Positions 21,743-21,824 of a stretch of DNA of 64,000 nucleotides are shown here, one piece after another. Each line of letters starts with the position of its first letter. The stretch's first letter is position 1. Position numbers and translations under genes: made by a program. Source of the DNA: a phage; NCBI GenBank assembly GCA_024683775.1, contig GCA_024683775.1_4106.1; one strand, given 5' to 3'. The notes beneath the pieces were generated by a model. That model saw nothing but the letters and a program-made list of their open reading frames with translations. It was not told the origin of the DNA and ran no database searches.

Positions 21743-21824
21743 CCGGGCGTATCTCAACGGTCTTCTAAACCGTCGTTAATCGAGTAACTGGAGTATGCAG
21801 GTTCGAGTCCTGTCGCCTGGGCCA
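21743..21824 (+). tRNA. atypical tRNA-like gene (anticodon loop CTTCTAA gives TCT, Arg-like) with no evident D-arm
   Basis: Acceptor CCGGGCG/CGCCTGG plus G plus CCA. T-arm CAGG-TTCGAGT-CCTG. Anticodon arm ACGGT-CTTCTAA-ACCGT. Only 7 nt sit where the D-arm should be, and about 23 nt occupy the variable region. Confidence 0.45.

What the first reader, a model, noticed from the sequence alone, without database searches (positions are those of the whole stretch)
21743..21824. tRNA-like gene lacking a D-arm, whose anticodon arm copies that of the neighbouring tRNA-Ser
This element lies directly after a canonical tRNA-Ser(TGA). It has a good 7-bp acceptor stem (CCGGGCG/CGCCTGG), discriminator G plus CCA, and a good T-arm. 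Only 7 nt (TATCTCA) occupy the place of the D-arm, and about 23 poorly paired nucleotides occupy the variable region.

Its anticodon arm, AACGGTCTTCTAAACCGTCG, differs from that of the upstream tRNA-Ser (AACGGTCTTGAAAACCGTCG) only in the anticodon (TCT instead of TGA).

It could be a decayed duplicate, a stable tRNA-like RNA (phage T4 encodes such RNAs, rnaC and rnaD, within its tRNA cluster), or a functional D-armless tRNA reading AGA.
Basis: partly seen in the sequence, partly recalled or inferred. Interest (0 to 1): 0.55.

Follow-up and report, generated by a model that had tools for sequence, protein, structure and literature searches.

The report
Rearranged-core arginine tRNA of phages
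This 82-base gene is not a decayed tRNA copy but a member of a widespread, strongly conserved phage family of arginine tRNAs whose D-arm parts sit in a different order along the chain, which matters because bacterial-type tRNAs are generally thought always to be cloverleaves.

Summary
Window 21743-21824 (+) has a 7-bp acceptor stem, G+CCA, a normal T-arm, an anticodon arm with TCT, 7 nt where the D-arm should be, and a 23-nt 'variable' region.

It is not a one-off. The same 82-nt element is found full-length in 247 GenBank phage records from unrelated groups. I collected 115 distinct sequences in all.

All helices covary. So does a previously unseen 3-4 bp helix between CTC (positions 11-13) and the first GAG of the 'variable' region (40-42). 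That helix is 100% paired, with at least 10 compensated states.

Next to it lies an invariant block, GUAAnUGGAGUAU, which reads like a tRNA-Arg D-loop (A14 A15 .. G18 G19 A20).

All 115 anticodons are arginine anticodons: UCU 108, CCU 4, ACG 2, UCG 1.

The element fills the missing tRNA-Arg(UCU) in near-complete phage tRNA sets. In this phage genus it replaces a canonical tRNA-Arg(TCT) exactly, gene for gene.

Best reading: a working AGA-decoding tRNA-Arg with a segment-swapped core, in the order 1-9 / 22-45 / 10-21 / 46-76. Expression, charging and 3D fold are untested. I found no prior description.

The parts
21609..21638 (+). Sigma-70-like promoter (TTGGAA, 18-nt spacer, TG-extended TATAAT) upstream of the tRNA-Ser / element pair.
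   Evidence: It is the only promoter-like site in 21200-22300 and matches 10 of 12 consensus positions. This is a consensus match only; function is inferred.
21649..21738 (+). Canonical class-II tRNA-Ser(TGA), probably co-transcribed with the element.
   Evidence: ARAGORN calls it. Rfam tRNA scores it at 61.7 bits.
21743..21824 (+). The whole element: an 82-nt non-cloverleaf tRNA-Arg(UCU)-type gene.
   Evidence: Rfam tRNA scores it at 32.6 bits with the D-arm deleted. The family model R1 scores it at 102.7 bits. Copies 100% identical over the 92-nt query occur in 6 related jumbo phages, and 100% identical over most of it in 5 more records.
21743..21749 (+). Acceptor stem, 5' strand (positions 1-7); pairs with 21814-21820.
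   Evidence: All 7 pairs show compensatory changes across the family and 99% of cells are paired.
21750..21752 (+). Junction U8 A9 U10.
   Evidence: Invariant in all 109 82-nt sequences, including the 86 found with a search pattern that did not cover these bases. U8 and A9 are the residues that canonical tRNAs carry at these positions (textbook knowledge).
21753..21756 (+). C11 U12 C13 (plus A14): the strand equivalent to the 3' strand of a D-stem (positions 22-25). It runs straight into the anticodon stem.
   Evidence: Pairs with 21782-21784. Pair 12-41 is UA 49, GC 22, AU 12, CG 2. Pair 13-40 is CG 69, GC 8, UA 6, UG 2. No sequence is unpaired. Pair 14-39 is A.C or C.A in 83 of 109 sequences, and a Watson-Crick or G-U pair in most of the others.
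21757..21773 (+). Anticodon arm: stem ACGGT/ACCGT and loop CUUCUAA, with anticodon UCU at 21764-21766.
   Evidence: All 5 stem pairs covary. The loop has U33 and A37. Anticodons in the family are UCU 108, CCU 4, ACG 2 and UCG 1.
21774..21781 (+). Linker C32 G33 U34 U35 A36 A37 U38 C39, which leads from the anticodon stem back to the short helix.
   Evidence: C32, A36 and A37 are invariant; U34 and U35 are nearly so. Rare 77-nt relatives have a 3-nt linker instead (L357, L342).
21782..21784 (+). G40 A41 G42: the strand equivalent to the 5' strand of a D-stem (positions 11-13).
   Evidence: Covaries with 21753-21755. The alternative partner, the second GAG at 21791-21793, is rejected: pair 12-50 is broken in 10 of 34 sequences and is never compensated.
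21785..21796 (+). D-loop-like block U43 A44 A45 C46 U47 G48 G49 A50 G51 U52 A53 U54. It reads as A14 R15 N16 U17 G18 G19 A20, followed by UAU, which matches variable-loop positions 46-48.
   Evidence: Invariant except position 46, including in members found with a pattern anchored elsewhere. AAyTGGA matches the D-loop AATTGGATA of the canonical tRNA-Arg allele. TAT before the T-stem is shared with the canonical T5-like tRNA-Arg. The assignment to numbered tRNA positions is inference.
21797..21813 (+). T-arm GCAGG UUCGAGU CCUGU.
   Evidence: The T-loop is the canonical UUCRAnY. Stem pairs 56-70 and 57-69 covary in the metagenome set.
21814..21824 (+). Acceptor 3' strand (21814-21820), discriminator G (21821) and encoded CCA (21822-21824).
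   Evidence: The discriminator is G or A in most members. CCA is encoded in the enterobacterial phage copies and absent in the Streptomyces-phage and many metagenomic copies, as is the case for ordinary tRNA genes.

Best explanation
The element is a functional phage tRNA gene that decodes AGA (and AGG by wobble) as arginine. Its core is wired differently from the cloverleaf.

[quoted passage not shown] There is no D hairpin. Instead, a 3-4 bp D-stem-like helix forms between the strand just 5' of the anticodon arm (C11-C13) and a strand 8 nt 3' of it (G40-G42), so this helix stacks end-on with the anticodon stem. It is followed by a D-loop-like block (A A n U G G A) that runs directly into the T-stem.

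In canonical numbering the chain order is [1-9][22-45][10-21][46-76].

The three new joins are 9->22, 45->10 and 21->46. Each connects residues that are already neighbours in the canonical L-shape, through the base triples 9-12-23, 10-25-45 and 13-22-46. The usual tertiary core (U8-A14, R15-Y48, G18/G19 with the T-loop) could therefore still form, and A20, the D-loop identity element of bacterial ArgRS, would stay in place.

The gene is transcribed with the upstream tRNA-Ser from one promoter and cut out like any tRNA.

What is shown:
- conservation
- covariation of four helices
- Arg-only anticodons
- complementarity with tRNA sets
- allelic replacement of a canonical tRNA-Arg

What is inferred:
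- transcription and processing
- charging by ArgRS
- use on the ribosome
- the 3D mimicry

Why phages keep this form is unknown. Candidate reasons are escape from a tRNA-directed host nuclease, or from a homing endonuclease that targets the canonical tRNA-Arg gene.
For: (1) Spread and conservation. blastn finds the element in 685 phage records, 247 of them at 80% coverage or more. At about 82-90% identity it occurs in unrelated groups: Asteriusvirus, Mydovirus, Felixounavirus, T5-like Klebsiella phages, Justusliebigvirus and a Streptomyces phage. Scans of IMG/VR and metagenomes bring the total to 115 distinct sequences, 109 of them exactly 82 nt.

(2) Structure.
- In 34 sequences, 94.7% of cells are paired against 69.5% in shuffles (0 of 500 shuffles reach this).
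- In an independent set of 86 sequences, 97.9% are paired against 67.1%.
- Sliding the partners by 1 to 3 columns drops pairing to 33-47%.
- The new helix 11-13/40-42 is 100% paired. It takes the states CTC/GAG, CGC/GCG, CAC/GTG, CTT/AAG, CGG/CCG, CGT/ACG, CAT/ATG, CCC/GGG, CAG/CTG, CCG/CGG and CTG/CAG.
- The top mutual-information pairs are exactly the proposed pairs.

(3) Arg identity.
- Anticodons are UCU 108, CCU 4, ACG 2 and UCG 1. All are Arg, spanning both Arg codon boxes.
- The block UGGA(G) keeps an A at the place of A20.
- Its ends are those of the canonical T5-like tRNA-Arg(TCT): CGGGGTGTA at the 5' end, and nearly identical from TATGCAGGTTCGAATCCTGTCACC to the CCA.

(4) Function-like genomic behaviour.
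- In 188 loci that carry the element, a canonical Arg(tct) lies elsewhere in the locus in only 4. One of those 4 is itself a non-cloverleaf variant. In another, the element carries CCT.
- 27 loci pair the element with a canonical Arg(ACG).
- Clusters of 23-26 tRNAs have no other Arg(UCU).
- A truncated copy (L174) sits beside a canonical Arg(tct).

(5) Allele swap. In this phage genus the slot after tRNA-Ser holds either the element (24 records) or a canonical 77-nt tRNA-Arg(TCT) (10 records), never both in one record. The flanks are identical up to the gene ends.

(6) Demand for the tRNA. AGA makes up 24% of Arg codons (9.2 per 1000) in the window's long ORFs, and the window is 34.6% G+C. AGA is rare in E. 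coli (general knowledge).

(7) Promoter. A promoter-like site lies upstream of the Ser gene, and only 4 nt separate the two genes.
Against: - There is no expression, processing, charging or decoding data.
- RNAalifold does not predict the short helix. By nearest-neighbour energies it costs about +1 kcal/mol on average. The helix rests on covariation alone.
- The single-sequence fold is no more stable than shuffles.
- The invariant junction nucleotides cannot be tested for pairing, so the mapping onto canonical tertiary contacts is inference.
- Position 21 would be G rather than the usual A, and there is no position-26 equivalent.
- Part of the apparent invariance comes from the search patterns. 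This is mitigated by using two non-overlapping anchors.
- Two loci (L066, L324) carry both the element and a canonical Arg(tct), so the two are not strictly exclusive.
- An Arg-only anticodon set would also fit a molecule that mimics tRNA-Arg without being used in translation.
Confidence: 0.7

Rival explanations
1. A tRNA-Arg mimic that is made but not used in translation. It could be a decoy or sponge for a host factor that recognises tRNA-Arg (an anticodon nuclease of the colicin-D type or a defence effector), or a regulator of some other kind.
For: The body is unusual enough that EF-Tu, the ribosome or modification enzymes might not accept it. Phage tRNAs are known to counter tRNA-cleaving defences (PMC10264068 and PMC11464382, titles and abstracts). 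The conserved anticodon loop and Arg-only anticodons would also suit a mimic of tRNA-Arg.
Against: - A decoy has no need of a perfect 7-bp acceptor stem, a discriminator, an encoded CCA and a canonical T-loop, all kept through many compensatory changes.
- It fills the Arg(UCU) gap in otherwise complete tRNA sets and swaps exactly with a canonical tRNA-Arg(TCT).
- The switches to CCU, ACG and UCG follow decoding logic.
Confidence: 0.14
2. The odd shape exists mainly because of selfish DNA. In this view it is a still-functional tRNA-Arg allele whose rearranged gene sequence is immune to a homing endonuclease that cuts canonical phage tRNA-Arg(UCU) genes. It would then have spread between phage families by homing. 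This rival concerns the origin and spread of the element and is compatible with the best explanation.
For: - HNH endonuclease genes lie immediately 3' of the element in three unrelated phages: Riker, warpig and 7t3.
- The element is about 90% identical across unrelated phage families.
- It replaces a canonical allele precisely.
- It shares both ends with the T5-like canonical tRNA-Arg.
Against: - The three HNH proteins are not one family: two are 26% identical and the third is unrelated.
- No HNH gene lies next to the element in the window, KB57, Paula or Stanimal.
- The element is also found in phages of distant hosts with deep sequence divergence, which suggests long vertical maintenance.
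Confidence: 0.2
3. A tRNA charged with an amino acid other than arginine, for instance by a class-II synthetase that reads the long extra region, so that AGR/CGN codons are recoded.
For: The long region between the anticodon arm and the T-arm resembles a class-II variable arm in size. The discriminator in the window copy is G, as in tRNA-Ser.
Against: - The extra region forms no hairpin of its own. Its covarying partner is the strand 5' of the anticodon arm.
- The phage itself uses AGA heavily, so miscoding would be costly.
- It swaps with a canonical tRNA-Arg.
- The A20-like adenine and C35 are kept.
Confidence: 0.04
4. A decaying tRNA pseudogene or a chance tRNA-like sequence.
For: ARAGORN does not call it. 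The single-sequence fold is not unusually stable. Most GenBank records leave it unannotated.
Against: There are 115 distinct sequences of fixed length. Compensatory changes occur in 16 of 20 pairs, and about 24 junction nucleotides are invariant. One truly decayed copy (L174) looks quite different: it is truncated after GTAAT.
Confidence: 0.01

Closest known systems
Canonical phage tRNA-Arg(UCU), such as the T5-like gene at L010 1457-1531 and the allele in Escherichia phage UE-S1 at L001 915-991
   Same: - Same anticodon loop, CUUCUAA.
- Same genomic slot in this phage genus.
- Same acceptor 5' end and T-arm/3' end as the T5-like gene.
- The D-loop motif AAyUGGA is present.
- 7-bp acceptor stem, G/A discriminator and CCA.

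   Different: - There is no D hairpin.
- The D-stem strands lie on either side of the anticodon arm, and the D-loop-like block lies where the variable loop should be.
- Length is 82 nt against 75-77 nt.
- Canonical tRNAs score 41 bits or less on the family model, against 84-104 bits for family members.
D-armless mitochondrial tRNAs of animals, such as tRNA-Ser(AGY/UCU) (reviewed in PMC7609411; structure paper PMC9427863)
   Same: There is no D hairpin, and the anticodon helix is extended by extra pairs. By coincidence, Ascaris mt tRNA-Ser also has the anticodon UCU.
   Different: - The mitochondrial forms are short (about 55-65 nt).
- They have a small replacement loop, lose the D-loop/T-loop contacts, and depend on adapted mitochondrial factors.
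- This element is longer than a normal tRNA.
- It keeps a GG-containing D-loop-like block and a canonical T-loop.
- It must work with ordinary bacterial factors.
Circularly permuted tRNA genes of the red alga Cyanidioschyzon merolae (PMC3978253, PMC3728597)
   Same: The order of tRNA segments in the gene differs from the order in a canonical tRNA.
   Different: In the alga the 3' half precedes the 5' half, and RNA processing through a circular intermediate restores a normal cloverleaf. Here both ends are normal. Two internal segments are swapped, and no known processing could restore the canonical order, so the mature RNA itself would be non-canonical.
Bacterial and phage tRNAs with unusual cloverleaves (8/4 and 9/3 'allo-tRNAs', PMC5389517) and the laboratory-evolved use of a D-arm-lacking tRNA in E. 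coli (PMC11551756)
   Same: These are non-standard tRNA bodies that operate, or are made to operate, with bacterial translation.
   Different: Allo-tRNAs keep all four arms in the usual order. The E. coli case is an engineered system that needed host adaptation, and its abstract states that all known bacterial tRNAs are cloverleaves.
   Same: Small RNAs encoded in a phage tRNA cluster.
   Different: I did not compare the sequences and recall no relation. Rfam gives no hit other than tRNA for the element. The element has a bona fide anticodon loop with Arg-only anticodons.

Membership tests
tRNA (Rfam RF00005) | Reaches the family's gathering score. | tested here: met
   32.6 bits against a gathering score of 29, over the full model length, with the same boundaries as the finding.
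tRNA (Rfam RF00005) | 7-bp acceptor stem with a discriminator and a 3' CCA. | tested here: met
   7 of 7 pairs in the window. 99% of cells are paired and all 7 pairs covary in the family. G+CCA is encoded.
tRNA (Rfam RF00005) | Anticodon arm with a 5-bp stem and a 7-nt loop carrying U33 and a purine at 37. | tested here: met
   ACGGT CUUCUAA ACCGT. All 5 pairs covary.
tRNA (Rfam RF00005) | T-arm with a 5-bp stem and a UUCRAnY loop. | tested here: met
   GCAGG UUCGAGU CCUGU. Stem covariation is seen.
tRNA (Rfam RF00005) | D-arm hairpin between positions 10 and 25. | tested here: not met
   Rfam aligns 15 model positions to 4 nt. ARAGORN fails at default settings and only forces an implausible fold at -ps80. 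The covarying partner of positions 11-13 lies 3' of the anticodon arm.
tRNA (functional definition) | Is aminoacylated and decodes on the ribosome. | not testable with these tools
   Only indirect evidence is available: Arg-only anticodons, complementarity with tRNA sets and the allele swap.
Bacterial tRNA-Arg identity (ArgRS substrates) | C35 with U36 or G36 in the anticodon. | tested here: met
   All 115 distinct sequences have NCU or NCG anticodons. The identity rule itself comes from the published literature on E. coli ArgRS and was recalled, not tested here.
Bacterial tRNA-Arg identity (ArgRS substrates) | A20 in the D-loop. | tested here: inconclusive
   An invariant A follows the GG (UGGA) in the relocated D-loop-like block. 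One tandem copy has C there (L363). Whether this A occupies the spatial position of A20 cannot be tested here.
Animal-mitochondrial-type D-armless tRNA | Short body with a small D-replacement loop and loss of the D-loop/T-loop elbow elements. | tested here: not met
   The element is 82 nt, has a conserved GG block and a canonical T-loop. ARAGORN in mitochondrial mode returns only a spurious 56-nt call with the wrong 3' boundary.
Circularly permuted tRNA gene | The 3' half is encoded upstream of the 5' half, and the termini are joined during processing. | tested here: not met
   The acceptor 5' and 3' strands are at the two ends of the gene in the normal order.
tRNA pseudogene | Relaxed constraint: broken stems, length variation, lineage-restricted distribution. 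| tested here: not met
   97.9% of cells are paired, 109 of 115 sequences are exactly 82 nt, and the element is present across unrelated phage groups.

The most novel reading that the evidence does not exclude
A natural, phage-restricted class of translationally active arginine tRNAs whose chain threads the tRNA core in a different order. The D-stem would be made from strands on either side of the anticodon arm, and the D-loop would be moved to the variable-loop position. It would still fold into an L-shape that bacterial ArgRS, EF-Tu and the ribosome accept.

This would be the first non-cloverleaf tRNA known to work in bacterial translation.

The architecture may not be limited to arginine. 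One metagenomic neighbour (L356 3368-3451) has the same layout with anticodon UAU.
Probability: 0.55. Interest if true: 0.9.

Novelty: new variant of a known kind. Interest (0 to 1): 0.8.

Why it matters
[quoted passage not shown] A conserved family in well-studied coliphage groups (Felix O1-like, T5-like, the rV5-related Mydovirus group, phi92-like and PBECO4-like) that builds a tRNA from re-ordered segments would show that the L-shape can be reached by another chain topology. It would also be a natural test case for what ArgRS, RNase P, the CCA enzyme, EF-Tu, modification enzymes and the ribosome actually need from the D-arm.

- **Genome annotation.** ARAGORN at default settings called only 5 of 190 copies, and most GenBank records leave the gene unannotated or mislabelled as tRNA-Leu, tRNA-TERM or tRNA-OTHER. 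Phage tRNA inventories therefore systematically miss their AGA decoder.

- **Synthetic biology.** A tRNA body this different could be a starting point for orthogonal tRNAs.

- **Phage-host conflict.** If the shape protects the tRNA from a host nuclease, it points to an as yet unknown defence or counter-defence acting on tRNA-Arg.

Tried and rejected
- **ARAGORN with relaxed settings.** Option -ps changes nothing. Option -ps80 forces a 'tRNA-Asp(atc)' with two-pair D and anticodon stems. Mitochondrial mode gives a 56-nt call with a wrong acceptor. No canonical cloverleaf with other boundaries exists.
- **Pairing of CTC (11-13) with the second GAG (49-51).** Pair 12-50 is broken in 10 of 34 sequences and is never compensated.
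- **A hairpin inside the 23-nt region** (the single-sequence minimum-free-energy fold). Family variation does not support it, and RNAalifold drops it.
- **RNAalifold on the family.** It returns only the three classical helices, so the fourth helix rests on pair counts and mutual information.
- **E. coli genomes.** No copy in 5,426 complete genomes, so it is neither host-derived nor carried on a prophage there.
- **Bacterial and archaeal genome scan.** Only 2 of 120 hits were real, both on MAG contigs, so I cannot say how often bacteria carry the element.
- **Search for the same architecture with other anticodons.** A descriptor scan of 3.28 Mb of held loci found 166 family hits and one genuine outsider (L356, anticodon TAT), with 0 hits in shuffled sequence. 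That outsider has no match among GenBank phages.
- **Idea that the neighbouring HNH genes form one mobile cassette with the element.** Rejected, because the proteins are not one family.
- **Literature.** Seven full-text searches, including a search for the sequence itself, and five papers read found no description of this RNA. The library is incomplete, so prior description cannot be ruled out.
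Full report
**1. What is in the window**

The window is 34.6% G+C. Over 21000-23000 it is 98-99% identical to jumbo coliphages of the PBECO4/121Q group, genus Asteriusvirus.

Four bases after the CCA of a normal tRNA-Ser(TGA) (21649-21738) lies the 82-nt element, 21743-21824.
- acceptor CCGGGCG/CGCCTGG
- G+CCA
- T-arm GCAGG-TTCGAGT-CCTGT
- anticodon arm ACGGT-CTTCTAA-ACCGT
- TATCTCA where the D-arm should be
- 23 nt before the T-arm

ARAGORN misses it. The Rfam tRNA model finds it with the same boundaries, just above its threshold (32.6 bits against 29), by deleting the D-arm. 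Relaxed ARAGORN runs only produce implausible folds.

A TG-extended sigma-70-like promoter lies in front of the Ser gene, which suggests one transcript for both genes.

**2. It is a family, not an accident**

A 92-nt query finds 685 phage records, 247 of them at 80% coverage or more. It is near-identical within the genus. At about 82-90% identity it occurs in unrelated phages:
- Klebsiella Mydovirus KB57
- T5-like Klebsiella phage Riker
- Felixounavirus (warpig, GE_vB_B3)
- Justusliebigvirus (Paula)
- Salmonella jumbo phage 7t3
- Streptomyces phage Stanimal

Most records leave it unannotated. The labels that do exist disagree: tRNA-Leu in 121Q, tRNA-TERM in 7t3, tRNA-OTHER in Riker.

Pattern scans of IMG/VR and of metagenomes, using two non-overlapping anchors, raised the total to 115 distinct sequences, 109 of them exactly 82 nt.

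A covariance model built on 34 of them separates the family from canonical tRNAs. Family members score 84-104 bits and canonical tRNAs score 41 bits or less.

No copy exists in 5,426 complete E. coli genomes.

**3. Structure from comparison**

On the first 34 sequences, 94.7% of cells in the proposed structure are paired, against 69.5% after shuffling (0 of 500 shuffles reach this). Sliding the partners drops pairing to 33-45%.

On an independent metagenomic set of 86 distinct sequences the figures are 97.9% against 67.1%.

Besides the three classical helices there is a fourth.
- Pair 12-41 occurs as UA 49, GC 22, AU 12 and CG 2.
- Pair 13-40 occurs as CG 69, GC 8, UA 6 and UG 2.
- No sequence is unpaired.
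- At least eleven compensated states of the helix are seen.

Mutual information ranks exactly these pairs at the top.

Position 14-39 is A.C or C.A in 83 of 109 sequences and a Watson-Crick or G-U pair in most of the others. That pattern looks like a fourth, often non-canonical, layer.

Pairing with the second GAG is rejected.

RNAalifold does not predict the short helix, and nearest-neighbour energies are neutral to slightly unfavourable, about +1 kcal/mol. The helix is therefore supported by covariation only.

**4. The conserved junctions and the segment-swap model**

Outside the helices about 24 nucleotides never or almost never vary, including in sequences where they lay outside the search pattern:
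- U8 A9 U10 C11
- C32 . U34 U35 A36 A37
- G42 U43 A44 A45 . U47 G48 G49 A50 G51 U52 A53 U54 G55

The block A44-A50 (A A y U G G A) matches the D-loop of the canonical tRNA-Arg that occupies the same slot in sister phages, GCAC-AATTGGATA-GTGC. U52 A53 U54 matches the last three variable-loop bases of the T5-like canonical tRNA-Arg, which also shares its acceptor and T-arm with family members.

Read in canonical numbering, the chain is:
1-9, a spacer U, 22-25, 27-43, a linker, 10-13, a spacer U, 14-21, 46-76.

Segments [10-21] and [22-45] have therefore changed places.

The three new junctions (9->22, 45->10, 21->46) join residues that touch each other in the classical L-shape, through the base triples 9-12-23, 10-25-45 and 13-22-46. 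This is textbook knowledge from yeast tRNA-Phe, recalled rather than computed.

It makes it plausible that the following all survive:
- the U8-A14 contact
- the A15-U48 contact
- the G18/G19 contacts with the T-loop
- the stacking of the D-stem on the anticodon stem

This mapping is inference. I had no RNA 3D tool.

**5. Evidence that it is the phage's tRNA-Arg**

(a) All 115 anticodons are arginine anticodons: UCU 108, CCU 4, ACG 2 and UCG 1. They are spread over both Arg codon boxes and always keep C35 with U or G at 36.

(b) An invariant A follows GG in the D-loop-like block. In bacterial tRNA-Arg, A20 is the D-loop identity element (recalled knowledge). The single same-architecture outsider, with anticodon UAU, has UGGUU at that place.

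(c) The element lies inside phage tRNA clusters.
- Among 188 loci carrying it, a canonical Arg(tct) lies elsewhere in the locus in only 4. One of these is itself a non-cloverleaf variant (L053), and in another the element carries CCT (L306).
- 27 loci combine the element (UCU) with a canonical Arg(ACG).
- Clusters of 23-26 tRNAs have no other AGA decoder.
- A truncated copy (L174) lies next to a canonical Arg(tct).

(d) In Asteriusvirus the slot after tRNA-Ser holds either the element (24 records) or a canonical 77-nt tRNA-Arg(TCT) (10 records). The two lists share no accession, and the flanks are identical right up to the gene ends.

(e) AGA is 24% of Arg codons in the window's long ORFs.

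(f) CCA is encoded in the enterobacterial phage copies and absent from the Streptomyces-phage and many environmental copies, as is the case for ordinary tRNA genes.

**6. The anticodon-arm resemblance to tRNA-Ser**

The identity is real: 18 of 20 bases. But AACGGT..ACCGTCG is the commonest arm in the whole family (10 of 115 distinct sequences) and is found in unrelated contexts. ACGGT/ACCGT also occurs in a distant phage tRNA-Ser(TGA) (L016).

The tRNA-Ser of sister phages that carry the canonical Arg allele differs from the window's Ser gene by one D-loop base and by a patch limited to the anticodon stem plus two bases, CTTGT/ACAAG-AG. Some exchange between the two neighbouring genes cannot be excluded. 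There is, however, no basis for saying that the element copied the Ser arm.

**7. Rivals**

- Pseudogene or chance sequence: excluded by sections 2-4.
- A non-translated tRNA-Arg mimic: possible, but it does not explain the preserved acceptor end, the gap-filling or the allele swap.
- Charging with another amino acid: unlikely, for the reasons in section 5.
- Link to homing endonucleases: worth keeping as an account of origin and spread. HNH genes lie directly 3' of the element in Riker, warpig and 7t3. They are not one family, and many carriers, including this window, have none.
- Why the rearranged form is kept remains unexplained. Escape from a tRNA-directed nuclease or from an endonuclease that targets the canonical gene are hypotheses only.

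**8. Comparison with what is known**

It works like a tRNA-Arg(UCU). It fails the D-hairpin criterion of the cloverleaf.

It is not of the animal-mitochondrial D-armless type. It is longer than normal and retains the GG block and the T-loop.

It is not a circularly permuted tRNA gene. The ends are in the normal order, and no known processing would restore the canonical order.

Seven full-text searches, including a search for the sequence itself, and five papers read found no description of it. A 2024 paper states that all known bacterial tRNAs are cloverleaves. The library is incomplete, so priority cannot be asserted.

**9. Verdict**

| Question | Verdict |
|---|---|
| Observation | Confirmed |
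| Conserved, structured, tRNA-like RNA gene | About 0.97 confidence |
| Working AGA-decoding tRNA-Arg | About 0.7 confidence |
| Segment-swap 3D mimicry | About 0.5 confidence |
| Novelty | New structural variant of a known kind |
| Interest | 0.8 |

Noticed in passing
window 24164-24255: A class-II tRNA-Ser with anticodon ACT (A34) instead of the usual GCT. ARAGORN and Rfam both call it (49.9 bits).
   Followed up: no
window 24263-24352 and 26585-26669; also L008 2305-2389, L025 4627-4711, L077 7418-7505 and 7758-7848, L053 6269-6364: tRNAs of isotypes that normally have short variable loops carry long variable arms. Examples are anticodon CAT at 90 nt and Asn GTT at 85 nt in the window, and Lys at 85-88 nt and Ile TAT at 91-96 nt in other phage clusters. 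These keep a normal D-arm.
   Followed up: no
window 21847-22340: Three tandem, overlapping paralogous ORFs of about 54 aa, each starting MTHEEWM, directly downstream of the element. They are annotated as three 165-bp hypothetical genes in phage WPEC3.
   Followed up: no
L004 1592-2101, L007 1544-1942, L006 1600-2118: HNH endonuclease genes start within about 20 nt 3' of the element in three unrelated phages (Riker, warpig, 7t3). In warpig the annotated gene starts inside the element. The proteins belong to different HNH families.
   Followed up: partly
L356 3368-3451: An 84-nt gene with the same rearranged layout but anticodon TAT (Ile AUA) and a different D-loop-like block (TAATGGTTCTT). It lies 10 nt upstream of an ordinary family member. 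It has no match in GenBank phages, and it was the only such outsider in 3.28 Mb of held loci.
   Followed up: partly
L053 13348-13429; L357 109-185; L342 3669-3745: Divergent relatives. One is an 82-nt UCU form with a more canonical D-loop sequence (TAATTGGATAG) and only a 2-bp candidate helix, sitting beside a CCU family member. Two are 77-nt forms in which the 8-nt linker is reduced to 3 nt.
   Followed up: partly
window 21675-21694 compared with L001 847-866: The anticodon stem of the tRNA-Ser(TGA) gene, plus two following bases, differs as a block between phages that carry the element (ACGGT/ACCGT-CG) and phages that carry the canonical tRNA-Arg (CTTGT/ACAAG-AG). Apart from one D-loop base, the rest of the gene is identical.
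   Followed up: partly
L174 6119-6183 and 5435-5512: A copy of the element truncated after GTAAT lies about 600 nt from a canonical tRNA-Arg(TCT).
   Followed up: partly
L363 1-157: Two family members in tandem, 5 nt apart. One has anticodon CCT. The other has TCT, is cut by the contig end, and carries C instead of the otherwise invariant A50.
   Followed up: no
L046 6424-6703; L065 2109-2182: A phage contig related to Streptomyces phages encodes a tmRNA with tag ANSMNASAFALAA. A 231-kb phage contig encodes a tRNA with anticodon CTA that ARAGORN calls tRNA-Pyl.
   Followed up: no
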